Positions 6,698 to 41,815 of a stretch of DNA of 64,000 nucleotides are shown here, in pieces. A program made the translations under genes and the position numbers. The stretch is from Mycobacteriales bacterium. Its GTDB lineage: Bacteria > Actinomycetota > Actinomycetes > Mycobacteriales > SCTD01. The stretch is from contig JAUYQP010000059.1 in NCBI GenBank assembly GCA_030697205.1, positions 13,127 through 77,126 on the forward strand, given 5' to 3'. Below the pieces are notes generated by a model, which did not search any database, was not told the origin of the DNA, and saw nothing but the letters and a program-made list of their open reading frames with translations. Position 1 is the first letter of the stretch, and each line of letters opens with the position of its first letter.

Positions 6698-8238
6698 TGC
6701 AGCCCTCCAGTCACCTGCGACGCGGCGTCGAGCAGAGCGGGTACGGCGGCGACGGCCGCCTCGATCTCGTCGGAGAGCACCCGGTCGGGGCCGGGTCCGT
6801 CGACGGTGCGGCGCAGCGCGGCGACGACCGCAGCGGTCGCGGGGGCCGGGGTGAGCGGCGCGCGCAGGTCGAGACCGCGGGCGGCGGTCATGACCTCGAT
6901 GGCGAGGACCCGGCGCAGGCCGTCGACGGTGCGGCGCAGCTTGCGGGCCGCGCCCCAGCCCATCGAGACGTGGTCCTCCTGCATGGCGCTGCTCGGGATC
7001 GAGTCGACGCTGGCGGGAGCGGCCAGGCGCTTGAGCTCGCTGACGATGCCGGCCTGGGCGTACTGCGCGATCATCAGCCCGCTGTCGACGCCGGGGTCGT
7101 CGGCGAGGAACGGCGGCAGCCCGTGGTTGCGGCTCTTGTCGAGCAGCCGGTCGGTGCGCCGCTCGCTGATGCTCGCGAGATCCGCGGCGGCGATGGCGAG
7201 GAAGTCGAGCGCGTAGGCGACCGGGGCGCCGTGGAAGTTGCCGTTGGACGCCAGCCGCCCGTCGGGCAGCAGCACCGGGTTGTCGATGGCTGACGCGGCC
7301 TCGCGGGCGGCGACGGTGCGGCAGTGCTCGAGGGTGTCACGGACCGCGCCCGCGACCTGCGGGGCGCAGCGCAGCGAGTAGGCGTCCTGCACCCGGGTGT
7401 CCTCCGGGCCGGCGTGGCTCGCGACGACCTCGGAGCCGTGGAGCAGCGCGCGCAGGTTGGCGGCGGACGCCTGCTGCCCGGGGTGCGGCCGCAGGGCCAC
7501 GAGGTCCTCGGCGAAGGCGCTGTCGGTGCCGAGCAGCGCCTCGACGCTCATCGCCGCGGCCACGTCGGCGAGGCGTGCCAGGTCGGCGAGGTCGTGGCAG
7601 GCGAGCATCAGCTCGGCGAGCATCCCGTCGGTGCCGTTGATGAGGGCGAGGCCCTCCTTCTCGGCGAGCGTGACGGGCTCGAGGCCGGCTGCCGCGAGCG
7701 CGTCGGCTGCTGGGAGCAGGCGGCCGTCGTGGTCGCGTACGGACCCCTCCCCCATCACCGCGAGGGCGACGTGGGCGAGCGGCGCGAGGTCACCGGAGCA
7801 GCCGAGGCTGCCGTACTCCCGCACGATCGGCGTGATGCCCGCGTTGAGCAGCCCGGCGTAGGCCTCTGCCGTCTCCGCTCGCACACCGGTGCGCCCGGTG
7901 GCGAGGGTCCGCAGCCGCAGCAGCGCCAGGCCACGCACGACCTCGCGCTCGACCTCCGCGCCGGTGCTCGCAGCGTGCGAGCGGACCAATGAGCGCTGCA
8001 GCTGGGTGCGCTTCTCGACCGGGATGTGGCGGGTCGCGAGCGCCCCGAAACCGGTACTCACGCCGTAGACCGGGACGTCGCTCGCGGCCAGCGCGTCGAC
8101 GTGCGCGCGGGCGTCGCGGATCAGGGTCAGCGACTCCGGGCTGATCTCGACCCGGGCCCCGTGGCGGGCCACCGCGACGAGCTCGTCCTCGGTGAGGGCC
8201 CGGTCCGGGTGCAGCACGACAGCGTCCACGCCCGGCAC
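6694..8238 (-). CDS. hutH: histidine ammonia-lyase
   Basis: MIO-forming segment [14 protein letters not shown] is present and HAL similarity runs full length. Start chosen at GTG 8238 (alternative GTG 8229), because the ORF start at 8322 would overlap the upstream MBL gene. Confidence 0.92.
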
Positions 8239-8257
8239 TCTGCCACCGATCTGCAGG

Positions 8258-8887
8258 TCAGTGGCCGCGCTTGACCCACTCGTCGTACGACGGGAGCTCC
8301 GCGCCGATGGTGGTCTCTGCACCGTGGCCGGTCAGCACGCGGGTCTCGGGCGGCAGCGCGCCGAGGCGGTCCTTGATGGAGCGCAGGATCGTCGGGAAGT
8401 CGCTGTAGGACCGGCCGGTCGCACCGGGACCGCCCTGGAAGAGGGTGTCCCCGGAGAAGACCAGCCCGAGGTCGGGCACGGACAGGCAGACCGCGCCGGG
8501 GGCGTGACCCGGGGTGTGGACCACCTCGACGCGGGTGCCCGCGACCTCGAGGCGCATGCCGTCCCGCAGGTCGCCGTCGGGCTCGTGCAGCGAGTGGGTG
8601 AGGTCCCACAGCACCCGGTCGTCGGGGTGAAGCAGCACGGGCGCGCTGGTCCGCTCCGAGAGCTCCGGGGCGAAGCGGACGTGGTCGTCGTGGGCGTGGG
8701 TGCAGACGATCGCGACGACCGTGCGGTCACCGACCGCGGCCTCGATCGCGTCGGGGTCGTGGGGGGCGTCGACGACGATGACCTCGGAGTCGTCGCCGAG
8801 GATCCAGACGTTGTTGTCGACGTCGAAGACCTGCCCGTCAAGGCTGAAGGTCCCGGACGTCACGAGGTGCTCGACGCGGGCGGTCAC
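8258..8887 (-). CDS. MBL-fold metallo-hydrolase (glyoxalase II-like; candidate S-formylmycothiol hydrolase)
   Basis: Contains the THAHDDH metal motif and HTPGHAPG. The GTG start overlaps the stop of the upstream dehydrogenase (GTGA). The dehydrogenase-MBL pairing is conserved in actinobacteria. Confidence 0.85.
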
Positions 8888-14830: not shown

Positions 14831-15130
14831 TCAGGCGCGCGCCGCCGGGGCGAGCTCGCGGTGGACGCGGCGCTCGACGACGAAGGACAGCAGCGGGACG
14901 GTGCCGGCCAGCAGCACGCCGAGGATGCGCACCGGTCGCCAGTGCTCGCGACGCCCGAGCACGAGCGCGACCACGAGGTAGACGAAGTAGACGAAGCCGT
15001 GGATCGGGCTGACGACCTCGACGAGCGCGGGCTCGTCGAAGCCGTACTTCACGACCATCGCGGCGACGAGCAGCAGCAGCATGACGCCGACCGTGAGCGC
15101 GAGCACCCGGAAGGCCGTGAGCAGGCTCAC
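14831..15130 (-). CDS. DUF3817-like integral membrane protein
   Basis: 99 aa with 3 predicted TM helices. The GTG start overlaps the upstream stop (GTGA). Confidence 0.72.
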   Translation of the reverse strand: MSLLTAFRVLALTVGVMLLLLVAAMVVKYGFDEPALVEVVSPIHGFVYFVYLVVALVLGRREHWRPVRILGVLLAGTVPLLSFVVERRVHRELAPAARA

Positions 15131-15486
15131 GAGCCCTTCTCCGCGAGTGACCGCAGATAGGCGTTGTACGCCGCCAGCTCGGGGTCGTCGTCAGCGGCGA
15201 GCGGGGCCGCGGGCTGGGCGCGGACCGGCAGGTCGGCGACCGGTGCGGGCTCGTCGTCCTGCTCGGGGCGGATCTCGTCGCGGGCGAGCTTGGCGTAGGC
15301 GACGACGGTGAAGCCCGCGAACAGCAGCCACTGCGCGGCGTAGGCGTAGTTCTGCACCCGGCCGCTGTCGCCGGCGCGCCCCCACTGCCAGCTGCCGAGC
15401 ATGAGCATCGCGACCGCGATCGCCACTACGACGGCGTGCAGCAGCAGCCACTTCGGCGAGGTGAACAGGGTCCGCACGTCGATCAC
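15127..15486 (-). CDS. small membrane protein (2 TM, acidic/Pro-rich C-terminus)
   Basis: GTG 15486 lies 1 nt after the hydrolase stop. Sequence VIDVRTLFTSPKWLLLHAVVVAIAVAMLMLGSWQW... has high GC3. Confidence 0.6.
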   Translation of the reverse strand: MIDVRTLFTSPKWLLLHAVVVAIAVAMLMLGSWQWGRAGDSGRVQNYAYAAQWLLFAGFTVVAYAKLARDEIRPEQDDEPAPVADLPVRAQPAAPLAADDDPELAAYNAYLRSLAEKGS

Positions 15487-15487
15487 G

Positions 15488-16275
15488 CTACCCGGCGACG
15501 AGCACCTCGGCCTGCTCGGACAGGTGGGCCGCGAGCAGGTCAGCGGTCTCGCGCGCGGAGGTCCAGAAGACCGCGCCCTGCGGCAGCTCGACGAGCCGAG
15601 CGTCGGGCAGCGCTGCGGCCAGCCGGCGGGCCACCGAGACGGGGTGGAGGTCGTCGTCGACCTGGGCCACGACAAGGGCGGGAGCGGTCAGCCGGCGCAG
15701 CTGCGACAGGTCGTCGAGCGGGCGCACCTGACCGCGCGGGCGCGGCGGCGGGCTCCCCGCGAGCTGGCGGGCGCGCCGCTGCACCAGCAAGCGCGCACCG
15801 GTGCGGTGCCGGACCGCATCGGGCACCTCGGCCAGCAGCAGGTCCGTCACGGCGGCCTGGTCGTCGGCGTCCATCGCAGCCGCGAGCCGCAGCAGCCAGT
15901 CGGTGGCGCGGTCGTCGCGGACCTCGTCGAGCGAGGCGGGCATGACGAAGGCGACCCGGTCGAAGCGCAACGGGTCGCGCACGAGGGCGCGCAGCAGCGC
16001 TCCAGCACCGAGCGAGAGCCCGACCGCGCGCGTCGCGCCGGTCGCGTCGGCGACCGCGAGCAGGTCGTCGGCGAGCAGGTCGAAGTCCCACCCGTCGACG
16101 AGCGGGTCGCTGCCGCCGTGCCCACGGAACGACAGCAGCACCCGGGTGCCGGGCGTGCGCGACGCGAGCGGTCGGACCTCCGCCTGCGACCCCGCGAGGC
16201 CGTGCGCGAAGACGGTGACCGGCAGGCCGTCACCGCTGGCCGACCACTCGACGCCGCCGACCCGGCCCTCGGCCA

Positions 16276-16276
<1 letters not shown>
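15488..16276 (-). CDS. alpha/beta hydrolase
   Basis: Nucleophile elbow GLSLG and oxyanion-region HGLAGS are present. The ATG start overlaps the fabG stop (ATGA). Confidence 0.8.
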
Positions 16277-19551
<3,275 letters not shown>

Positions 19552-19555
<4 letters not shown>

Positions 19556-19806
19556 GCGTTGACGCCCGTCTTCGCGATGAAGTCGAGGGCGTCCTGGACG
19601 GTCTTGAGGCCCTCGAGCGCGTCGTCGGGGATGCGGACGCCGAAGCGCTCCTCGCAGGCCACGACGACCTCGACCATCGACAGGCTGTCGACCTCGAGGT
19701 CGTCGAGGAAGGTCGCCTGGGGGACGACTGCGCTCGGCGCGGTGCCGGCGATCTCCTGCAGGATCTCGGCGAGGCCGGCGAGCAGGTCAGGGTGGGGGTA
19801 GGACAT
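19552..19806 (-). CDS. acpP: acyl carrier protein
   Basis: 84 aa with the phosphopantetheine site LEVDSLSMVE. Confidence 0.93.
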
Positions 19807-19854: not shown

Positions 19855-20796
19855 TCAGGGGAGACGGACGACCTGCGCGGCCGCCGTGAGGCCGGCGCCG
19901 AAGCCGAGCAGCAGGACCGCGTCGCCGCTGCCCACCTGCCCCTCCTCGACGAGCCGGGCGAGGGCGAGCGGGACCGACGCGGCGCTGGTGTTGCCGCTGT
20001 CGACGACGTCGCGGGCGACGATGACGGTGCCGGGGAGCTTGAGGCTGCGGACCACCGACTCGGTGATGCGCAGGTTGGCCTGGTGGGGGACGACGGCCTG
20101 CAGCGCGTCGACGGCGACGCCGGCCTGCTCGCACGCCCGTCGGGCCAGGGCGGGCAGCGACATCGTGGCCCAGCGGTAGATGGCCTGGCCCTCCATGGCG
20201 AGCCGCGGCGGCGTGCCATGGATGGTGAGCAGTGCATGCTGGTCGCCGTCGTGGGCCCACGCCACCCGGCCGATGCCGTCCATGTCGGCGGCACTGACGA
20301 CGGCCGCGCCCGCGCCGTCGCCGAAGAGGAAGGCGGTGCCGCGGTCGTCGGGGTCGACCATCGGCAGCAGCTTCTCGGAGCCGATGACGAGGACGTGCTG
20401 GGCAGTGCCAGCGCGCACGGTGTCGGCGGCGAGGGCCAGCGCGTAGGTGAAGCCCGCACAGCCGGCGCCGATGTCGGAGGCGCCGGCGCGGGTCGCGCCG
20501 AGGCGGGACGCGACCTCGGGCGAGCCGCCAGGCAGCGGGCCGGGCATGGAGCAGGTGGCCAGCAGCACCAGGCCGACGTCGGCCGGGTCGACACCGGCTG
20601 CGGCGAGCGCCTTGCCGCCGCTGCTCACGGCCATGTCCACGACCGACTCGTCGTCGCCCGCGACCCCGCGGGTCACGATGCCGCTGCGCTCGCGGATCCA
20701 CTCGTCGCTCGACCCGATGCGCTCGGCGATGGCGAGGTTGTCGACGCGACGGGCGGGCCTGTGGGCGCCGACGCCGGTGACGGCCGCGCCCCTCAT
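19855..20796 (-). CDS. fabH: beta-ketoacyl-ACP synthase III
   Basis: KAS III similarity (GAGCAGFTYAL, HQANLRI, GNTSAAS). The ATG start overlaps the fabD stop (ATGA). Confidence 0.92.
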   Translation of the reverse strand: MRGAAVTGVGAHRPARRVDNLAIAERIGSSDEWIRERSGIVTRGVAGDDESVVDMAVSSGGKALAAAGVDPADVGLVLLATCSMPGPLPGGSPEVASRLGATRAGASDIGAGCAGFTYALALAADTVRAGTAQHVLVIGSEKLLPMVDPDDRGTAFLFGDGAGAAVVSAADMDGIGRVAWAHDGDQHALLTIHGTPPRLAMEGQAIYRWATMSLPALARRACEQAGVAVDALQAVVPHQANLRITESVVRSLKLPGTVIVARDVVDSGNTSAASVPLALARLVEEGQVGSGDAVLLLGFGAGLTAAAQVVRLP

Positions 20797-21932
20797 GCGA
20801 GCACCGCCAGGGGCTGACCGACACGGACGGGGTCGCCGTGGGACACGACCCACTCCGAGACGGTGCCCGCGAGCGGCGCGAGCACCTCCTCGCTGCCGGA
20901 GCGCCCGGCGACGAGGCCGAGGCGCTCGCCCTGCTCGACGCGGTCACCGACGAGCCGGGTGAGGTCGATGACGCCGGTGCCCGGGGACGGGACCACCCGG
21001 AAGCGCACCTCCGGGCTCTCCCGCAGTCCGGCGGGCAACAGGGAGCGGCCGAGCTCCAGGTCGGCCGGGGTGGTGAGCGCCGCGAGCTGGGCGCCGGGCA
21101 GGGCGCGCTTGGCGAGCGCGGTGAGGGTGCCGCCCGGGGCGAGCTCGACGGCGGCGTGGGTGCCCATCGCGGACAGCGTCGCGAGGCAGCTGTCGAAGCG
21201 GACCGGGCCGGTGAGCTGCGCGACCAGCCGGGTGAGGGCCTCGCGCCCGTCGGTGACGACGGCACCGTCGGCGTTGGCGACCACCGGGCAGAGCGGGCGA
21301 CCGGGGGTGAGTGCCTGCACGGCACGGTCGAGGCGGTCCCGGGCGGGGAGCATCGCCGCGGTGTGGAAGGCACCGGCGACGTCGAGCGGGCGGACCCGCG
21401 ACCGCTCCGGCGGCGCTGCCGCGAGCTCTTCGAGCGCCGCGGTGTGGCCGCCGAGCACGACCTGCCCCGCGACGTTGACCGTGGCGAGCTCGAGCCCGAG
21501 CTCGGCCGCGAGGGCCAGCACCTGCGCGGTGTCGCCACCCAGGACGGCGACCAGGCCGGTGGGGTGGACGGCTGCGGCGTCGGCCATGGCTCGCCCGCGC
21601 AGGACAGCCAGCGACACCGCCTCGTCGGCGGTGAGCACCCCGGCCACGGCGAGCGCCGGCAGCTCGCCGACGCTGTGACCGCAGACCGCGTCGGGCACGG
21701 CACCGTCGAGCAGGGCGTCCGCGGCCAGCAGCGCGGCGACGGTCAGCAGCGGCTGGGCGACGGCGGTGTCACGGATCTCGTCGGCGCCGGCCGTGGTGCC
21801 GAGCGCGACGAGGTCGAGACCGACCTGCTCCGACCAGCGCTCGACCGCGGCGCGGGCGCCGGGGAAGTCGAGCCAGGGCGTGAGGAGGCCGGGTGTCTGG
21901 GAGCCCTGACCGGGCGAGAGGAGGACGAGCAC
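20793..21932 (-). CDS. fabD: malonyl CoA-ACP transacylase fused to a C-terminal lysine-less biotinyl/lipoyl-like domain
   Basis: FabD core (PGQGSQ, GHSVGE, AFHT) occupies about residues 1-300. Residues 308-379 (nt 20796-21011) align to the BCCP domain of the biotin carboxylase at 39845..41815, but AGRSGSEE replaces EAMKME. Confidence 0.9.
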   Translation of the reverse strand: MLVLLSPGQGSQTPGLLTPWLDFPGARAAVERWSEQVGLDLVALGTTAGADEIRDTAVAQPLLTVAALLAADALLDGAVPDAVCGHSVGELPALAVAGVLTADEAVSLAVLRGRAMADAAAVHPTGLVAVLGGDTAQVLALAAELGLELATVNVAGQVVLGGHTAALEELAAAPPERSRVRPLDVAGAFHTAAMLPARDRLDRAVQALTPGRPLCPVVANADGAVVTDGREALTRLVAQLTGPVRFDSCLATLSAMGTHAAVELAPGGTLTALAKRALPGAQLAALTTPADLELGRSLLPAGLRESPEVRFRVVPSPGTGVIDLTRLVGDRVEQGERLGLVAGRSGSEEVLAPLAGTVSEWVVSHGDPVRVGQPLAVLA

Positions 21933-21997: not shown

Positions 21998-22020
21998 TCT
22001 TTGTCAGTAACCTACAAAGA
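21998..22020. promoter_or_regulatory. AT-rich palindrome TCTTTGT-N9-ACAAAGA upstream of fabD (candidate FasR/MabR operator)
   Basis: A perfect 7-bp inverted repeat with a 9-nt spacer lies 66-88 nt upstream of the fabD start and overlaps the stop codon of the PucR-type regulator. It is unusually AT-rich for this genome. Confidence 0.45.
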
Positions 22021-23205
22021 GCTGGTCCGGCCGAGCGTGAGCGCGATCCGCGTCACCTGAGCGTCACGTGGCTGTGACAGGTCGAGCCCCAGCAGGTCGG
22101 TCACCTTCTTCAGCCTGTAGCGCACGGTGTTGGGGTGCAGGAAGAGCGCCCGGGCGGTCCCCTCCACTGATCCGCCGGCGTCAAGGTAGGCCGCGGCGGT
22201 GTCGAGCAGGTCTCCCCCGGCAGACGCGAGTGTGTTGTAGGTCTCCTCCAGCAGGCGGCGTCGGGCGTCCGGGTCGCCGAGGACCACCCGCTCGGCCAGC
22301 AGGTCCTGGGTCGGCACCGGCCGCGGGGCTCCCGGCCATGCCGCGACGGCGTCGAGCCCGGCGAGCGCCTCGCGCACCGAGCCGGCCGCGGCGACCAGGT
22401 CGTCGACCACCGGCCCGGTCACGACGGGCCCGCTACCGAAGGCGGCCACCACCTGCGTCACGGCCGCGGCGGCACCACCCGCGCCGCCCACGACGACGAG
22501 CAGCCGACCGCCGTGGTCCCCGACGAGCAGCGACAGGGCGGTGTGTCGGGCCGCGGTCCGCAGCTCGGCCACCGCGGAGTCCGCGGCCGAGACAGGGGCG
22601 TCCCCCGCGACGGCCAACACCCACCCCGGCCGCCCCCAGCCGAGCGAGGCGGCCCGCGACTGGACGGCCTCCCCCACGTCACCGCGGGCGAGGGCCTCGA
22701 CGACGCTCGCTTCCAGCCGCGCGTCCCAGGCGCCGCGCTCCTCGGCGGCAGCGGCGTAGACCTCGGCGGCGGCGAAGGCGACCTCGCGGGAGTAGCGCAG
22801 GACGGCGCGCTCGAGCAGCGCCGCCTCGCCGGGCCCGGGGCCGGCCAGGGTCGGCACCGCCTCCTCGAGCACCTCGACGGTGGCCCGGATGAGCTGCACG
22901 GTCTGCTGCAGCGTCACGGCCCGGGCCATCTCGCGCGGAGCGGCCGCGAAGATGGCCACGTCGGCGGTCGGGGGGCCCGAGGTGTCGCGGAACCAGCCGG
23001 CGAAGCTCGCGAGACCGCTCTGCACCACCAGACCGACCCAGGAGCGCTGCTCGGCTGACAGCGCCGCGAACCACGGCAGCGCCTCCATCCGGCGCACGGC
23101 GGCCGTGGACAGCCGCGGTGAGGCCCGGCGGACCCGCTGCCAGGTCGCCTGCTGGGCGCCACCGCCACGTGGTGCGGCAGGACACATGGCGGCAGTCTGG
23201 CCCAC
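22012..23205 (-). CDS. PucR-type transcriptional regulator of fatty-acid synthesis (FasR/MabR family)
   Basis: C-terminal PucR HTH LFLHPNTVRYRLKKVTDLLGLDL. N-terminal ALSAEQRSWVGLVVQSGL resembles FasR/MabR. The gene sits immediately upstream of fabD-fabH-acpP-fabF. Start is 23205 or 23187. Confidence 0.85.
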   Translation of the reverse strand: MGQTAAMCPAAPRGGGAQQATWQRVRRASPRLSTAAVRRMEALPWFAALSAEQRSWVGLVVQSGLASFAGWFRDTSGPPTADVAIFAAAPREMARAVTLQQTVQLIRATVEVLEEAVPTLAGPGPGEAALLERAVLRYSREVAFAAAEVYAAAAEERGAWDARLEASVVEALARGDVGEAVQSRAASLGWGRPGWVLAVAGDAPVSAADSAVAELRTAARHTALSLLVGDHGGRLLVVVGGAGGAAAAVTQVVAAFGSGPVVTGPVVDDLVAAAGSVREALAGLDAVAAWPGAPRPVPTQDLLAERVVLGDPDARRRLLEETYNTLASAGGDLLDTAAAYLDAGGSVEGTARALFLHPNTVRYRLKKVTDLLGLDLSQPRDAQVTRIALTLGRTSSL

Positions 23206-37066: not shown

Positions 37067-38201
37067 CGAGCGACCGGCCGACGATCTCCTTCATGATCTC
37101 GGTCGTCCCGCCGTAGATGGTCTGGACGCGCGAGTCGATGTAGGCCTTGGCGATGGGGTACTCCATCATGTAGCCGTAGCCGCCGTGCAGCTGCACGCAC
37201 TGGTCGACGACCCGCTTCTGCAGCTCCGTCGTCCACCACTTCGCCATCGCGGCGTCCTGGACGGTGAAGCGCCCCTCGTTGTGCTCGAGGACCGCCTTCT
37301 CGAGGTAGACCTCAGCGATCTCGATCTCGGTGGCCATCTCGGCGAGCACGAAGCGGTTGTGCTGGAAGGAGCCGATCGGCTTGCCGAAGGCCTTGCGCTC
37401 CTTGCAGTAGTCGAGGGTCAGGTCGAAGACCTTGCGCGCCGCGCCCACCGCGACGGCCGCGATCGACAGCCGCTCCTGGGGCAGCTTGTCCATGAGGTGG
37501 ATGAAGCCCTGGCCCTCCTCACCGACCAGGTTGGTGGCGGGCACCCGCACCTCGTCGAAGAACAGCTCGGCGGTGTCCTGCGCCTTCATGCCGACCTTCT
37601 CGAGGTTGCGACCGCGCTCGAAGCCCTTCATCCCGCGCTCGACCGCGAGGATCGAGAAGCCGCGAGCCCCCGCCTCCGGGTCGGTCTGGGCCACGACGAG
37701 CACCAGGTCGGAGTTGATGCCGTTGGTGATGAAGGTCTTCGACCCGGTCACGATCCAGTCGGAGCCGTCACGGACAGCGCGCGTCGCGATCGCCTGCAGG
37801 TCCGAGCCGGTGCCGGGCTCGGACATAGCGATCGCGGTGATGAGCTCGCCGCTGCAGAACTGCGGCAGCCAGCGCTCCTTCTGCTCCTCGGTCGTCAGGT
37901 CGTTGAGGTAGGGCGCCACGACGTCGTTGTGCAGCGTGAAGCCCACGCCGCTGCCGCCGACGCGCGTGACCTCGTGGGCGAGCACGACGTTGTAGCGGAA
38001 GTCCTTCACGCCGCCGCCGCCGAAGCGCTCCGGCACGTCCATGCCGAGCAGCCCCTGCTTGCCGGCCTCGAGCCACAGCGAGCGGTCGACGATGCCGTCC
38101 TTCTCCCACTGCGCGTGGAAGGGCGCGATGTGCTTGTCACAGAAGCTGCGCACCGTGTCGCGGAAGGCGAGGTGCTCCGGGTCGTAGAGGTTCGACTGCA
38201 T
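37059..38201 (-). CDS. acyl-CoA dehydrogenase (isovaleryl/short-branched-chain type by context)
   Basis: ACAD similarity runs full length (AMSEPGTGSDL, FGKPIGSFQHNRF, GGYGYMMEYP, YGGTTEIM). It is divergent from the carboxylase genes. Confidence 0.93.
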   Translation of the reverse strand: MQSNLYDPEHLAFRDTVRSFCDKHIAPFHAQWEKDGIVDRSLWLEAGKQGLLGMDVPERFGGGGVKDFRYNVVLAHEVTRVGGSGVGFTLHNDVVAPYLNDLTTEEQKERWLPQFCSGELITAIAMSEPGTGSDLQAIATRAVRDGSDWIVTGSKTFITNGINSDLVLVVAQTDPEAGARGFSILAVERGMKGFERGRNLEKVGMKAQDTAELFFDEVRVPATNLVGEEGQGFIHLMDKLPQERLSIAAVAVGAARKVFDLTLDYCKERKAFGKPIGSFQHNRFVLAEMATEIEIAEVYLEKAVLEHNEGRFTVQDAAMAKWWTTELQKRVVDQCVQLHGGYGYMMEYPIAKAYIDSRVQTIYGGTTEIMKEIVGRSLGV

Positions 38202-38225
38202 GGCGCTACGTTAGCCGTCGTTCAC

Positions 38226-39845
38226 ATGACCCGCGAGGGAGGCCCCGTGCCCGTCCTAGCCGACCGGATCGACCGCCGCTCCCCGGAGGCGGTGGCCAAC
38301 CGCGCCGCCGCCCTGGCATCGCTGGCCGCCCTCGAGCCGCACCACGAGGCGGCCCGCGGCGGTGGCGGCCCGCGCTCGGTGGAGCGCCACAGGGGTCGCG
38401 GCAAGCTGCTCCCCCGCGAGCGGATCGAGCTGCTCGTCGACCAGGACAGCCCCTTCCTCGAGCTGTCACCGCTCGCGGCGTACGGCAGTGCCTTCCCGCT
38501 GGGGGCGAGCGTCGTCACCGGCATCGGGGTCGTCGAGGGCACCGAGGTGATGATCGTCGCGAACGACCCGACGGTGCGCGGCGGTGCGAGCAACCCGGTG
38601 ACCAGCAAGAAGGTCGGCCGCGCGATGGAGGTCGCCCGGGAGAACCGCCTGCCCCTGGTCAACCTCGTCGAGTCCGGCGGCGCGGACCTGCCGACCCAGG
38701 CCGAGATCTTCATCCCCGGCGGCGCTCTCTTCCGCAACCTCACGCAGTTCTCCGCCGCGGGCATCCCGACGATCGCGCTGGTCTTCGGCAACTCCACCGC
38801 CGGCGGCGCCTACGTCCCCGGCATGTGCGACCACGTCGTCATGGTCGAGGGCCGCGCCAAGGTCTTCCTCGGCGGACCACCCCTGGTGAAGATGGCGACC
38901 GGCGAGGAGAGCGACGACGAGTCCCTCGGTGGCGCCGAGATGCACGCCCGCGTCTCCGGCCTCGCCGACCACCTCGCGACCGACGAGCGCGACGCGATCC
39001 GCATCGGCCGCGACATCGTGAGGGACCTGCGCCACCGCAAGCTCGGCCCCGGCCCGACGCTGTCCCCCGACGCACCACGGGTCGACGCCGACGGGTTGCT
39101 CGACGTCGTCAGCGCCGACCTGCGGGTGCCCTTCGACCCGCGCGACGTCCTTGCCCACGTCGTCGACGGCAGCCGCTTCGACGAGTGGAAGCCGCTCTAC
39201 GGCTCGTCGCTCGTCACCGGCTGGGCGTCGGTCCACGGCTACCCGGTCGGGGTGCTCGCCAACGCCCGCGGCGTGCTGTTCAACGAGGAGTCGGAGAAGG
39301 CCGCGCAGTTCATCCAGCTCGCCAACCGCTCCCACACCCCGCTGGTCTTCCTGCAGAACACCACCGGCTACATGGTGGGGAAGGACTACGAGCAGCGCGG
39401 CATCATCAAGGACGGCGCCAAGATGATCAACGCGGTGAGCAACAGCCGCGTCCCCCACCTCACGATCGTCATGGGCGCGTCCTACGGCGCCGGCAACTAC
39501 GGCATGTGCGGTCGCGCCTACGGCCCGCGCTTCCTCTTCTCCTGGCCCGGCGCGAAGTCCGCGGTGATGGGCCCGGCGCAGCTCGCCGGGGTCCTGTCGA
39601 TCGTCGGCCGGCAGTCCGCCGAGGCCAAGGGACAGGTGTACGACGAAGCCGGTGACGCGGCGATGCGGGAGCTGGTCGAGGCCCAGATCGAGGCCGAGTC
39701 GCTGGCGCTCGCCAACACCGGGCGGGTCTACGACGACGGCATCATCGACCCGCGCGACACCCGCACCGTGCTCGGCCTGTGCCTGTCGGTCGTGCACAAC
39801 CAGGTCGTACAGGGCACCGACGGCTACGGCGTGTGGAGGCACTGA
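38226..39845 (+). CDS. acyl-CoA carboxylase carboxyltransferase subunit (methylcrotonyl-CoA carboxylase beta / AccD1-like)
   Basis: GKLLPRERIELLVD, ANDPTVRGGA, ESGGADLPTQ and NTTGYMVGKDYE are present. Start is ATG 38226 or GTG 38247. Confidence 0.92.
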   Translation: MTREGGPVPVLADRIDRRSPEAVANRAAALASLAALEPHHEAARGGGGPRSVERHRGRGKLLPRERIELLVDQDSPFLELSPLAAYGSAFPLGASVVTGIGVVEGTEVMIVANDPTVRGGASNPVTSKKVGRAMEVARENRLPLVNLVESGGADLPTQAEIFIPGGALFRNLTQFSAAGIPTIALVFGNSTAGGAYVPGMCDHVVMVEGRAKVFLGGPPLVKMATGEESDDESLGGAEMHARVSGLADHLATDERDAIRIGRDIVRDLRHRKLGPGPTLSPDAPRVDADGLLDVVSADLRVPFDPRDVLAHVVDGSRFDEWKPLYGSSLVTGWASVHGYPVGVLANARGVLFNEESEKAAQFIQLANRSHTPLVFLQNTTGYMVGKDYEQRGIIKDGAKMINAVSNSRVPHLTIVMGASYGAGNYGMCGRAYGPRFLFSWPGAKSAVMGPAQLAGVLSIVGRQSAEAKGQVYDEAGDAAMRELVEAQIEAESLALANTGRVYDDGIIDPRDTRTVLGLCLSVVHNQVVQGTDGYGVWRH

Positions 39846-41815
39846 TGCCGGTCATCACCCGGGTGCTCGTCGCCAACCGCGGCGAGATCGCCCGCCGGGT
39901 CTTCCGCACCTGCCGCGACCTCGGGCTGTCGACGGTCGCGGTCTTCAGCGACGCCGACGCGGACTCACCCCACGTCCGCGAGGCCGACGCGTCGGTGCGC
40001 CTGCCGGGGACCGCACCGTCGGAGACCTACCTGCGCGGCGACCTCGTTATCGCCGCAGCCCTCGCCACCGGCGCCGACGCGGTCCACCCCGGCTACGGCT
40101 TCCTGTCCGAGGACGCGGCCTTTGCCCAGGCCGTCGTCGACGCGGGCCTCACCTGGGTCGGCCCGCCACCGGAGGCGGTGCGGCTGATGGGCTCCAAGCT
40201 CGGTGCGAAGGCGCTGATGGCCGACGCCGGCGTGCCGTGCCTGCCCGGCGCCGACGTCACCGACCTGCCCGCCGCCGACGTGCAGGCGGCAGCGACCGCC
40301 ATCGGCTACCCGGTGCTCGTCAAGGCCAGCGCCGGCGGCGGCGGCCGCGGCATGCGGGTCGTGCGCGACGAGGCCGACCTCGTCGACGCGGTCGCGAGCG
40401 CGCAGCGCGAGGCCGCCTCGGCCTTCGGCGACGCCACTGTCTTCCTCGAGCGCTACGTCGACAGCCCGCGCCACGTCGAGGTGCAGGTCATGGCGGACAC
40501 CCACGGCACCGTCGTCGCGCTCTTCGAGCGGGAGTGCTCGATCCAGCGCCGCCACCAGAAGGTCGTCGAGGAGGCCCCCTCCCCCGCCGTCGACGAGGCC
40601 CTGCGCGCGCGGCTGTCAGAGGCCGCGGTCGCGGCCGCCAAGGCCGTCGACTACACCGGCGCCGGCACGGTGGAGTTCGTGCTCTCCCCCGACGGCGAGC
40701 CGTTCTTCCTGGAGATGAACACCCGCCTGCAGGTCGAGCACCCGGTCACCGAGCTCGTCACCGGCCTCGACCTCGTCGCCCTGCAGCTGCTCGTCGCCGA
40801 GGGCCACCCGCTGCCGCCCGAGGCGACCAGCGCGACCCTGTCCGGCCACGCGATCGAGGCCCGCCTCTACGCCGAGGACGCCACCGCCGGGTTCCTCCCC
40901 GCCAGCGGCACCCTCCACCGCTTCGACATCCCGGCGACAGCGGGCGTCCGCGTCGACGCCGGCGTGGAGAGCACATCGGTCGTCAGCACCCACTACGACG
41001 CGATGCTCGCGAAGGTCGTCGCCCACGGCGCGACCCGCGCGCAGGCCGCGAGCCGGCTCGCCGCGGCGCTGCAGGGCGCCCGTCTGCACGGCGTCACCAC
41101 CAACCGCGACCTGCTCGTGCGGGTCCTGCGCTCGCCGGACTTCCTGGCCGGTCGCACCGACACCGCCTTCTTCGACCGCCACGACCCATCGGTCCTCGGG
41201 GCCGGTCTGCTCGACGACGACGGCCGTGCCCTCCACGCCGTTGCCGCGGTCCTCGCCGCCGTCGCCCACCGCCGCGCCACCGCGACGACGCAGGCCGGGC
41301 TGCCGACCCGCTGGCGCAGCCTGCCGAGCGCCCCGGAGACCACGGCCTTCGTCGACGGCCCCGTCGTCGCCTACTCCTTCCCGCGCGGGGGCGTCGAGGT
41401 CGACGTCGACGGCCGGCGCCTCGAGGGCGTCACCCTGTGGTCGGCCACCGCCGAGGAGGTCGACCTCGAGGTCGCGGGGGTGCGCCGCCGCTACGCCGTC
41501 GCGCGACAGGGCTTCACGGCGTACGTCGACTCCGCCTTGGGCAGCGCCGTGCTCGAGGAGGTCGAGCGCTTCCCGCTGCCCGGCTCGCAGCTGGCCGAGG
41601 GCGCGCTGGTCGCCCCCATGCCCGGCAGCGTCGTCCGGGTCGACGCGACCGTCGGCGCCGAGGTTGCCGCCGGGGACGTGCTGGTGGTGCTGGAGGCCAT
41701 GAAGATGGAGCACGCGGTGCGGGCGAGCGCCGCCGGGACGGTCACCGAGGTGCACGTCGCTGCCGGCGAGCAGGTCGATGCGGGTGCCCTGCTCGCAGTG
41801 GTCGCACCGGCCTGA
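39845..41815 (+). CDS. biotin carboxylase + BCCP alpha subunit (methylcrotonyl-CoA carboxylase alpha / AccA1-like)
   Basis: VLVANRGEIARRV and the ATP-grasp domain are present, with the C-terminal biotinylation motif LVVLEAMKMEH. The ATG start overlaps the upstream TGA by 1 nt. Confidence 0.93.
   Translation: MPVITRVLVANRGEIARRVFRTCRDLGLSTVAVFSDADADSPHVREADASVRLPGTAPSETYLRGDLVIAAALATGADAVHPGYGFLSEDAAFAQAVVDAGLTWVGPPPEAVRLMGSKLGAKALMADAGVPCLPGADVTDLPAADVQAAATAIGYPVLVKASAGGGGRGMRVVRDEADLVDAVASAQREAASAFGDATVFLERYVDSPRHVEVQVMADTHGTVVALFERECSIQRRHQKVVEEAPSPAVDEALRARLSEAAVAAAKAVDYTGAGTVEFVLSPDGEPFFLEMNTRLQVEHPVTELVTGLDLVALQLLVAEGHPLPPEATSATLSGHAIEARLYAEDATAGFLPASGTLHRFDIPATAGVRVDAGVESTSVVSTHYDAMLAKVVAHGATRAQAASRLAAALQGARLHGVTTNRDLLVRVLRSPDFLAGRTDTAFFDRHDPSVLGAGLLDDDGRALHAVAAVLAAVAHRRATATTQAGLPTRWRSLPSAPETTAFVDGPVVAYSFPRGGVEVDVDGRRLEGVTLWSATAEEVDLEVAGVRRRYAVARQGFTAYVDSALGSAVLEEVERFPLPGSQLAEGALVAPMPGSVVRVDATVGAEVAAGDVLVVLEAMKMEHAVRASAAGTVTEVHVAAGEQVDAGALLAVVAPA

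What the first reader, a model, noticed from the sequence alone, without database searches (positions are those of the whole stretch)
20796..21011. FabD carries a C-terminal biotinyl/lipoyl-type domain that lacks the modifiable lysine
The last 72 residues of the 379-aa malonyl-CoA:ACP transacylase are EVRFRVVPSPGTGVIDLTRLVGDRVEQGERLGLVAGRSGSEEVLAPLAGTVSEWVVSHGDPVRVGQPLAVLA. They align along their length with the BCCP domain of the biotin carboxylase in this window (LVAPMPGSVVRV...VLEAMKMEH...GTVTEVHVAAGEQVDAGALLAVV). AGRSGSEE sits where EAMKME should be. FabD is normally about 300 aa with no such domain. The same operon encodes an AccD6-like carboxyltransferase but no BCCP or biotin carboxylase. 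A non-biotinylatable BCCP-like domain on FabD could dock the transacylase onto the carboxylase and channel malonyl-CoA.
Basis: partly seen in the sequence, partly recalled or inferred. Interest (0 to 1): 0.6.

Follow-up and report, generated by a model that had tools for sequence, protein, structure and literature searches.

The report
FabD with lysine-less biotin-carrier-like domain
The fatty-acid enzyme FabD here ends in a small, well-folded copy of a biotin-carrier domain that cannot carry biotin; comparison of many related genomes shows that evolution keeps this domain mainly where the neighbouring AccD6 carboxylase gene is kept, so it probably ties the making of malonyl-CoA to its use.

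Summary
The 379-aa FabD (window 20793-21932, minus strand) has an intact transacylase core, a roughly 13-residue linker and a C-terminal biotinyl/lipoyl-fold domain. Evidence for the domain: Pfam PF00364 above its cut-off, a family profile matching solved biotinyl and lipoyl domains at E 1e-17 to 1e-9, and an AlphaFold model (pLDDT 95) with TM 0.87 to BCCP structures. The hairpin reads G-R-S-G where A-M-K-M or D-K-A would be, and the domain has no lysine.

It is not an assembly artefact. The fusion occurs in 114 of 301 sampled genomes of the order, including Micromonospora, Blastococcus, Geodermatophilus and Frankia-like lineages.

The scan has reported this fusion before on other DNA. New here:
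- Within three genera, non-fused operons are collinear orthologues lacking both the domain and accD6, through two separate deletions.
- Across 15-16 independent contrasts, AccD6 goes the same way 8-11 times and never the opposite way.
- In one genus the domain's dN/dS rises from 0.13 to 0.71 once accD6 is gone.
- Exceptions exist. A distant variant in other classes, fused or as a separate small ORF before fabH, mostly lacks accD6 nearby.

Functional coupling to AccD6 is well supported. Physical docking and channelling remain inferred. I found no paper on it.

The parts
22012..23205 (-). PucR-family regulator (MabR/FasR-like) directly upstream of fabD
   Evidence: Pfam HTH_30 plus GGDEF_2. It is conserved upstream of fabD in nearly all related loci.
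21039..21932 (-). FabD acyltransferase core, residues 1-298. The catalytic motifs are intact: GQGSQ, GHS87VGE, R112, H190.
   Evidence: PF00698 E 6e-25 and TIGR00128 166 bits. These residues are invariant in alignment A1. The closest solved structures are S. coelicolor FabD 1NM2 and M. tuberculosis FabD 2QC3, which cover residues 2-299 only. pLDDT is above 93.
21000..21038 (-). Interdomain linker, about residues 299-311
   Evidence: It is the only low-confidence stretch of the full-length model (block 301-310, mean pLDDT 54). Non-fused orthologues end here.
20796..20999 (-). Lysine-less biotinyl/lipoyl-fold (barrel-sandwich hybrid) domain, residues 312-379.
   Evidence: PF00364 at 25.9 bits, above the 22.1 cut-off. 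Profile matches to solved biotinyl and lipoyl domains. AF2 pLDDT 95.5 and Foldseek TM 0.87 to BCCP.
20895..20906 (-). Hairpin tip G343-R344-S345-G346. S345 occupies the position of the biotinyl/lipoyl lysine, and the preceding Arg is the family signature.
   Evidence: Alignments to the 1.3S AMKM motif and the E2p DKA motif. Arg is present in 165 of 165 distinct domains retrieved. The Lys-equivalent position is R62/S46/Q27/A13/G12/T4/E1. Some loci have N-R, K-R or K-K instead.
20850..20855 (-). E360-W361, invariant family-specific pair on the strand after the second Pro-x-x-Gly
   Evidence: Invariant in alignment A2 across 14 loci of 10 families. In true BCCPs the Trp position is Val or Ile.
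19855..20796 (-). FabH (KAS III). Its ATG overlaps the FabD stop (ATGA).
   Evidence: Pfam ACP_syn_III and ACP_syn_III_C. The sequence is. tblastn alignments in relatives start at the same point.
19552..19806 (-). Acyl carrier protein
   Evidence: PF00550 E 8e-14
18350..19555 (-). KAS I/II (KasA/FabF-like)
   Evidence: PF00109 plus PF02801
16977..18353 (-). AccD6-type carboxyltransferase beta subunit, last core gene of the operon
   Evidence: PF01039 E 2e-112. The best solved relative is M. tuberculosis AccD6 4FB8 (517 bits, E 3e-154), against about 374 bits for PccB.

Best explanation
The C-terminal domain is a non-catalytic descendant of a biotinyl/lipoyl carrier domain that cannot be biotinylated or lipoylated. 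Its function depends on the AccD6-type carboxyltransferase encoded at the end of the same operon. The most likely mechanism is docking. The domain, on a flexible linker, would bind the AccD6-containing acyl-CoA carboxylase at or near the site that normally receives the BCCP domain of the alpha subunit. Its basic hairpin (Arg344) and the Glu-Trp strand would serve as contact elements. This would hold FabD next to the place where malonyl-CoA is released. SHOWN: the fold, the absence of the acceptor lysine, conservation under purifying selection, co-loss with accD6, and relaxation of selection after accD6 loss. INFERRED: direct binding, the binding site, and channelling of malonyl-CoA.
For: Fold and homology.

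The domain is conserved and selected. It is present in 114 of 301 genomes and 41 of 82 genera of the order. At least 1293 database proteins match at E<=1e-8, almost all annotated as malonyltransferases. Its dN/dS is 0.4-0.6 between species and 0.13 within genus g26 where AccD6 is present.

Coupling to AccD6:
(a) All 15 fused loci first examined in the class had accD6 in the operon.
(b) In genera g26, g35 and g50 the non-fused operons are collinear orthologues (nucleotide identity 72-95% in the aligned blocks). They lack both the roughly 250-nt domain segment and accD6, as two separate gaps with fabH-acp-kas retained between them.
(c) The AccD6 orthologue is absent genome-wide in 5 of 5 such genomes (best carboxyltransferase 43-47% identical). 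It is 61-62% identical in four of the five fused genomes checked, and present but split by frameshifts in the fifth, G125.
(d) Among phylogenetically independent pairs that differ in the fusion, AccD6 goes the same way in 10-11 pairs and the opposite way in none, with 5-6 unchanged (p about 0.002). After adding deliberately chosen counter-examples the count is 8 same, 0 opposite, 7 unchanged (p about 0.008).
(e) In g26 the domain's dN/dS is 0.71 without AccD6 against 0.13 with it, while the transacylase core stays at 0.20-0.22. The ratio of domain identity to core identity is 0.81 against 0.95.
(f) In one AccD6-less locus (L095) the invariant Glu and the hairpin Arg are replaced.
(g) AccD6 of fused operons is unusually conserved, with 201 of 428 columns at least 94% identical. 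In the non-fused branch of the window's own family it has changed at 12-14 of the 15 columns that differ from the fused form, while KAS, FabH and the FabD core show 0-1 such columns.
Against: No binding was tested, and no multimer model could be run.

AccD6 without the domain is common and stable: 105 of 301 genomes, including all sampled members of families f12 and f19. The domain is therefore an accessory, not a requirement for AccD6.

Nine or ten sampled genomes keep a largely intact domain without accD6 (genera g11, g26, g34).

In other classes of the phylum, a homologous module (hhalign 99.3%, E 3e-20) sits between FabD and fabH, either fused or as a separate ORF. There accD6 is in the operon in only 1 of 7 loci. 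The neighbours common to all forms are thus FabD and FabH.

The full-length model has pTM 0.80 and a low-confidence linker, so it shows no fixed interface.

The relaxation of selection comes from one genus and 75 codons.

The residue-level differences in AccD6 come mostly from one lineage.
Confidence: 0.55

Rival explanations
1. Regulatory decoy, like plant BADC. The lysine-less domain competes with the true BCCP domain of the alpha subunit for the biotin carboxylase or for the AccD6 active site. It would thereby tune or inhibit malonyl-CoA synthesis according to the amount or state of FabD, rather than channel the product.
For: This reading uses the same evidence for dependence on AccD6 as the main explanation. 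BADC proteins are lysine-less BCCP homologues that bind the ACCase biotin carboxylase/BCCP subcomplex and reduce its activity (abstracts of PMC12706156 and bioRxiv 10.1101/634550, found). A domain occupying a BCCP site would be expected to compete with BCCP.
Against: The covalent 1:1 fusion to FabD and the translational coupling to fabH fit a scaffold better than a titratable inhibitor. BADCs are free-standing proteins with an N-terminal region that this domain lacks. No data here separate inhibition from tethering.
Confidence: 0.2
2. Initiation-module adaptor independent of the carboxylase. The domain would bind FabH, ACP or FabD itself (for example to bridge FabD and FabH, or to recruit ACP through its basic hairpin). 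Its association with accD6 would be indirect.
For: The module is always encoded between the FabD core and fabH, with overlapping stop and start codons. In other classes it is a separate small ORF or a fusion in fabD-fabH-fabG-acpP-fabF operons without accD6. It persists with its hallmark residues in six g26 genomes that lack accD6. The conserved basic hairpin would suit the acidic ACP (inference).
Against: It does not explain why two separate deletions remove the domain and accD6 together in several genera while fabH, acp and kas stay. It also does not explain why selection on the domain alone relaxes after accD6 loss. No fused-specific columns were found in FabH, ACP or KAS.
Confidence: 0.15
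3. Structural or vestigial appendage. The domain would be a remnant of an old fusion that only stabilises or solubilises FabD, or does nothing.
For: It has been lost many times (at least 16 changes of state among 75 loci) without loss of the operon. It evolves faster than the FabD core. The genome also encodes a second, more canonical FabD paralogue.
Against: It has been kept in frame across at least 10 families. It has invariant surface-type residues (Arg hairpin, Glu-Trp). Its dN/dS is 0.13 where AccD6 is present. Its loss is non-random with respect to AccD6.
Confidence: 0.07

Closest known systems
Biotinyl domain of biotin carboxyl carrier proteins (E. coli BCCP 1BDO; P. horikoshii BCCP 2D5D/5GUA; P. 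shermanii transcarboxylase 1.3S 1DCZ; C-terminal domain of actinobacterial AccA3)
   Same: Same barrel-sandwich hybrid fold (TM 0.84-0.87). Same internal two-fold pattern of Pro-x-x-Gly and Gly-Asp motifs. 36% identity to the BCCP domain of the carboxylase alpha subunit in the same window. Pfam PF00364 scores above its cut-off.
   Different: There is no Met-Lys-Met. The acceptor position is Ser here and is variable in the family, and an Arg precedes it. It is fused to a transacylase instead of a biotin carboxylase or a BCCP N-terminal region. It cannot carry CO2.
Lipoyl domains of 2-oxo acid dehydrogenase E2 components (E. coli E2p 1QJO, 7B9K)
   Same: These are equally good sequence matches (E 1.4e-17 for the three E2p domains together). 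The hairpin lengths are the same, with G-R-S-G-S aligned to G-D-K-A-S.
   Different: There is no Asp-Lys-Ala, and there is no E2 catalytic or subunit-binding context.
Plant BADC proteins (biotin attachment domain-containing; lysine-less BCCP homologues of plastid heteromeric ACCase)
   Same: Both are BCCP-derived domains that have lost the biotinyl lysine and work, or are proposed to work, through protein contacts with an acetyl-CoA carboxylase at the entry to fatty-acid synthesis (papers found).
   Different: BADCs are free-standing plant proteins that act as negative regulators or assembly factors. This domain is bacterial, fused to FabD and tied to an AccD6-type beta subunit. No common origin of the lysine loss is implied. 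This is a functional analogy, not family membership.
Canonical FabD / MCAT of actinobacteria (S. coelicolor 1NM2; M. tuberculosis Rv2243, 2QC3) in mabR/fasR-fabD-(fabH)-acpM-kas-(accD6) operons
   Same: The transacylase core is orthologous (261 and 248 bits). The regulator and operon order are the same.
   Different: Those proteins stop at about residue 300. No solved FabD covers residues 300-379.

Membership tests
FabD (malonyl-CoA:ACP transacylase) | Acyltransferase fold with the GHSxGE nucleophile elbow, the malonyl-binding Arg, the catalytic His and the N-terminal GQGSQ motif | tested here: met
   PF00698 E 6e-25. G85-H86-S87-G89-E90, R112 and H190 are invariant in 88 homologues. 261 bits to S. 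coelicolor FabD. TIGR00128 scores 166 bits, below its 261-bit equivalog cut-off.
FabD (malonyl-CoA:ACP transacylase) | Position in the FAS-II operon next to fabH, acp and kas | tested here: met
Biotinyl/lipoyl domain superfamily (Pfam PF00364, barrel-sandwich hybrid) | Sequence match above the curated threshold | tested here: met
   25.9 bits against a cut-off of 22.1. The profile matches solved biotinyl and lipoyl domains at E 1e-17 to 1e-9.
Biotinyl/lipoyl domain superfamily (Pfam PF00364, barrel-sandwich hybrid) | Flattened beta-barrel fold with the hairpin between strands 4 and 5 | tested here: met
   AF2 pLDDT 95.5 with six strands. Foldseek TM 0.87 to 5gua and 1bdo. This is a predicted structure, not a solved one.
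Functional biotin carboxyl carrier (BCCP) | Lys in an (A/V)-M-K-(M/L) hairpin as biotin acceptor | tested here: not met
   The hairpin is G-R-S-G and the domain has no Lys. The acceptor position is never Lys in 165 distinct family members. One locus (L100) has T-K-K-E, which is not a canonical motif.
Functional biotin carboxyl carrier (BCCP) | Biotinylation by biotin protein ligase | not testable with these tools
   This needs a streptavidin blot or mass spectrometry.
Functional lipoyl domain | Lys in a D-K-A hairpin | tested here: not met
   In the alignment to the E. coli E2p domains, R-S-G lies opposite D-K-A.
Plant BADC family | Free-standing plastid protein, homologous to BCCP along its length, that binds biotin carboxylase | tested here: not met
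   Here there is only the 70-residue domain, fused to FabD in a bacterium. Binding could not be tested. BADC is listed as a functional analogue only.
AccD6-type carboxyltransferase (partner gene) | Orthology to M. tuberculosis AccD6 rather than to PccB, AccD5 or AccD4 | tested here: met
   517 bits to 4FB8, against 374 bits to PccB and 351 bits to AccD5. Ile at the specificity position after the G-G-A oxyanion motif was read from the alignment; the assignment of that position is from memory of PccB D422.

The most novel reading that the evidence does not exclude
The FabD tail is a docking plug. Its arginine-tipped hairpin would enter the biotin-receiving pocket of AccD6 in alternation with the true BCCP arm, forming a transient ACC-FabD metabolon. 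This metabolon would hand malonyl-CoA directly to FAS-II. It would be a previously unknown physical link between the carboxylase and type II fatty-acid synthesis, and a bacterial counterpart of lysine-less BCCP paralogues in plants.
Probability: 0.3. Interest if true: 0.75.

Novelty: new variant of a known kind. Interest (0 to 1): 0.62.

Why it matters
Type II fatty-acid synthesis is usually described as a set of freely diffusing enzymes fed by a separate carboxylase. A conserved carrier-like domain on FabD whose evolutionary fate follows AccD6 suggests a built-in physical or regulatory link between malonyl-CoA production and its first use. This occurs in a large part of the Actinomycetes, including antibiotic producers such as Micromonospora, where malonyl-CoA supply limits polyketide yield. 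It also gives a clean natural experiment. Closely related species exist in three states (with the domain and AccD6, without AccD6, without both) for testing how biotinyl-domain folds are reused as interaction modules. Mycobacteria keep AccD6, an essential gene and drug target, but lack the domain, so the comparison could show what the domain adds.

Tried and rejected
Gene neighbourhoods were rebuilt instead from genome stretches with tblastn.
- The homologue search restricted to residues 305-379 found only 6 close relatives, because of word sharing.
- The exhaustive representative search with the 72 residues mostly returned ordinary lipoyl and biotinyl proteins and a few fused FabDs, so it was not informative on distribution.
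- The phylum-level profile search was dominated by true BCCP domains of carboxylase alpha subunits at 40-53 bits. Only scores of about 78 bits or more mark this family.
- I looked for AccD6 columns that track the fusion. There are 23 such columns in the first set and 15 in the larger set, against 0-4 in the other operon proteins. Most come from one lineage, the non-fused branch of the window's family. Only G175-R176-R177 and D320 differ in several lineages, and two recent domain-loss loci keep them. I treat these as candidates, not evidence of an interface.
- Replacement of the whole operon by a foreign one, as an explanation for the joint absence, is rejected. Fused and non-fused operons within a genus are as similar as fused ones are to each other, and their flanks are collinear.
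- Misassembly or frameshift is rejected.
- The earlier notes' claim that the fusion always comes with accD6 is rejected as stated.
- The statement that the hairpin never holds Lys was softened.
- No paper describing the fusion was found in seven literature searches. The library lacks most subscription journals.
Full report
**What is there.** On the minus strand, window 20793-21932 encodes a 379-aa protein.
- Residues 7-279 match the acyltransferase family PF00698 (E 6e-25). Residues 315-378 match PF00364 Biotin_lipoyl at 25.9 bits, above the curated cut-off of 22.1.
- The FabD catalytic residues (GHS87VGE, R112, H190, GQGSQ) are invariant among 88 homologues.
- The closest solved FabDs (S. coelicolor 1NM2, M. 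tuberculosis 2QC3) align only to residues 2-299, so no solved structure covers the extension.
- The stop codon overlaps the ATG of fabH (ATGA, 20793-20796).
- The operon reads: PucR-type regulator, FabD, FabH, ACP, KAS, carboxyltransferase. The last is a clear orthologue of M. tuberculosis AccD6 (517 bits to 4FB8, against 374 to PccB).
- No biotin carboxylase or BCCP lies in the operon. The only other PF00364 domain on this contig belongs to a separate beta-alpha carboxylase gene pair at about 38.4-41.8 kb of the window.

**Is the domain real?** Yes.
- BLASTP against the BCCP domain of the window's own carboxylase alpha subunit gives 36% identity over 66 residues (E 3e-7). G-R-S-G lies opposite A-M-K-M.
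- A profile of 14 such domains from 10 families (A2) matches solved lipoyl domains of E. coli E2p (E 1.4e-17), the transcarboxylase 1.3S subunit (5.6e-15) and other BCCPs.
- In these alignments the modified lysine falls on Ser345, and Arg344 takes the place of the preceding Met or Asp.
- AlphaFold2 models are confident: full length pLDDT 94.9, domain alone 95.5. The only weak stretch is the linker (block 301-310, pLDDT 54).
- Foldseek places the domain with BCCPs (5gua and 1bdo, TM 0.87).
- With a pTM of 0.80 for the full-length model, the position of the small domain relative to the core is not fixed. This is an inference from the score, because no error map was available.

**Family signature.** Among 165 distinct domains retrieved:
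- The residue before the acceptor position is Arg in all of them.
- The acceptor position is Arg, Ser, Gln, Ala, Gly, Thr or Glu, never Lys.
- Only 8 domains contain any Lys.
- Loci fetched later show N-R, K-R and even K-K hairpins. The rule is therefore a basic, non-canonical hairpin, not a strict absence of Lys.
- Glu360-Trp361 is invariant in A2.

**Distribution.**
- The fused form is common. With profile A2 at E<=1e-15 it is found in 114 of 301 genomes and 41 of 82 genera sampled from the order.
- It is nearly universal in some families (f18 31/32, f7 6/6, f2 25/32). It was not found in f5, f12, f15, f16 or f19. In the window's own family it occurs in 4 of 32 genomes plus the window's own.
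- Named database members include Micromonospora, Phytohabitans, Solwaraspora, Blastococcus, Geodermatophilus, Modestobacter and Frankiales MAGs. They are annotated only generically.
- The window's closest relatives are Mycobacteriales and Frankiales-type MAGs.
- On a tree of the transacylase core alone, the fused state is strongly clustered: 4 changes among 150 rows.
- The tallies include a few unpublished genomes: G007, G148, G167, G217 and G231 in the order sample, and eight in the phylum sample. No individual claim rests on them. Locus L072 (G469) gave nothing.

**Link to AccD6.**
- All 15 fused loci of the class that I first examined carry accD6 at the end of the operon, but so do most non-fused loci of the first set.
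- I then chose non-fused genomes from families and genera that also hold fused ones, without knowing their AccD6 state. Fifteen of these 18 non-fused operons lack accD6.
- Within genera g26, g35 and g50 the fused and non-fused operons are orthologous. Protein identities between the two states equal those within a state.
- The DNA is collinear on both sides. For L010 against L092, the aligned blocks are 85-95% identical. They are interrupted by exactly two gaps: the roughly 250-nt domain segment and the roughly 1.5-kb accD6. FabH-ACP-KAS (95% identical) is kept between them.
- In 5 of 5 such genomes the AccD6 orthologue is missing from the whole genome (best carboxyltransferase 43-47% identical). 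Four of five fused comparators hold one at 61-62%, and the fifth (G125) holds it split by frameshifts.
- A test on phylogenetically independent pairs gives 10-11 pairs in which AccD6 changes in the same direction as the fusion, none opposite, and 5-6 unchanged (p about 0.002).

**Exceptions.** An unbiased cross-tabulation of the 301 genomes gives four classes:

| State | Genomes |
|---|---|
| Fused, with AccD6 | 99 |
| Fused, without an AccD6 hit | 15 |
| Non-fused, with AccD6 | 105 |
| Neither | 82 |

- Of the 15 fused genomes without a hit, I fetched 10. Three have accD6 in the operon but cut or missed by the search, and a fourth, G125, has it split by frameshifts. One of the fetched loci (G160) ends at a contig edge and stays unresolved, as does G217, which I did not inspect. 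Six fetched genomes really lack it in the operon: five of genus g26 and one of g34.
- The three remaining genomes are of genus g11. Two of them were seen to lack accD6 in the operon. The third was judged from the genome search only.
- A sixth g26 genome (G017) also lacks accD6 in the operon but has an AccD6-like hit elsewhere.
- With these deliberately chosen counter-examples added, the paired test still gives 8 same, 0 opposite, 7 unchanged (p about 0.008).
- The rare state, domain without AccD6, shows signs of relaxed constraint. In g26 the domain's dN/dS is 0.71 without AccD6 and 0.13 with it, while the transacylase core stays at 0.20-0.22.
- At equal divergence of KAS and the core, domain identity is 0.72 against 0.83.
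- In g11 one locus has lost the invariant Glu and the hairpin Arg.
- These relaxation data come essentially from one genus and 75 codons. The hallmark residues are still present in most of those genomes.
- The pattern fits a one-way dependence. AccD6 does well without the domain, as in the families that include the mycobacteria-like genomes. The domain is seldom kept for long without AccD6.

**A complication.**
- In other classes of the phylum, profile A2 also picks up a domain between the FabD core and fabH. It is fused in L062, L063, L064 and L068. It is a separate small ORF in another frame in L071, L073 and L075.
- It is homologous to A2 (hhalign 99.3%, E 3e-20), but it has a four-residue deletion that removes the hairpin tip, and it lacks the Glu-Trp pair.
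- Those operons read fabD-fabH-fabG-acpP-fabF. Only 1 of 7 has accD6 within the fetched flank.
- The module is therefore older than its tie to AccD6. Its constant neighbours are FabD and FabH, and the arginine hairpin and Glu-Trp are features of the AccD6-associated form.
- This keeps open a role within the initiation module. It also contradicts earlier notes of this scan that the fusion always comes with accD6.

**Residue-level hints.**
- AccD6 from fused operons is very conserved: 201 of 428 columns are at least 94% identical. Fifteen of those columns differ in non-fused operons, against 0-4 in PucR, the FabD core, FabH, ACP and KAS.
- Most of this comes from the non-fused branch of the window's own family (G277A, E286D, A289G, W319D and others).
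- Only G175-R176-R177 and D320 differ in several lineages, and two recent domain-loss loci keep them.
- I list these as candidates for mutagenesis, not as evidence of an interface.

**Other points.**
- The genome holds a second, more canonical FabD paralogue next to FabG- and InhA-like genes. The fused protein need not be the only malonyl transferase.

**Verdict.**
Functional coupling to AccD6 now rests on co-loss, paired contrasts and relaxed selection. Docking and channelling remain untested.
- No paper on this fusion was found.
- The scan itself has reported the fusion at least eight times on other DNA.
- The closest functional analogue is plant BADC.
- By membership, the domain belongs to the biotinyl/lipoyl superfamily but fails the defining acceptor-lysine test for a working carrier.

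Noticed in passing
G000 contig C47:8394-9191 (locus L027:5755-6855, +) and downstream L027:6852-7553, 7836-8600: A second FabD paralogue lies here. It is closer to the canonical model than the fused one (TIGR00128 249 bits against 166) and 39% identical to it. It is directly followed by a FabG/MabA-like SDR and an InhA/FabI-like enoyl reductase.
   Followed up: partly
window 38400-41815 (+): A separate acyl-CoA carboxylase gene pair: a carboxyltransferase beta subunit (PF01039, inside ORF 37185-39845) followed by a 678-aa BC-BCCP alpha subunit with a normal Met-Lys-Met biotinyl domain (39779-41815). Its substrate was not assigned.
   Followed up: partly
window 14831-17400 (-): The operon continues past accD6 with a FabG-like SDR (ORF 16276-17400, whose long 5' part overlaps accD6, so the true start is probably near 16990). 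An alpha/beta hydrolase (15488-16366) and a DUF3817 protein (14831-15130) follow.
   Followed up: no
loci L002-L004, L019-L022 (non-fused relatives of the window's family): In the non-fused branch of the window's own family, AccD6 has changed at 12-14 of 15 columns that are at least 94% conserved in the 33 AccD6 sequences from fused operons (for example G277A, E286D, A289G, W319D). KAS, FabH and the FabD core show no such shift.
   Followed up: partly
loci L010/L101-L103, L114-L118/L124, L091-L093 (one genus, g26; named hits suggest Micromonospora): One genus holds three operon states: domain plus accD6, domain without accD6, and neither. This makes it a ready-made natural series for experiments.
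   Followed up: yes
loci L071:7989-8213, L073:7992-8231, L075:7992-8231: In other classes of the phylum the lysine-less domain is a free-standing ORF of roughly 80-110 codons between fabD and fabH. It starts in another frame at the fabD stop. Such small ORFs are easily missed by gene callers.
   Followed up: partly
loci L099, L100, L113 (families f11, f4): In these lineages the hairpin reads T-K-R-E or T-K-K-E, so a lysine sits at or next to the acceptor position in a non-canonical context. Whether any ligase can use it is unknown.
   Followed up: no
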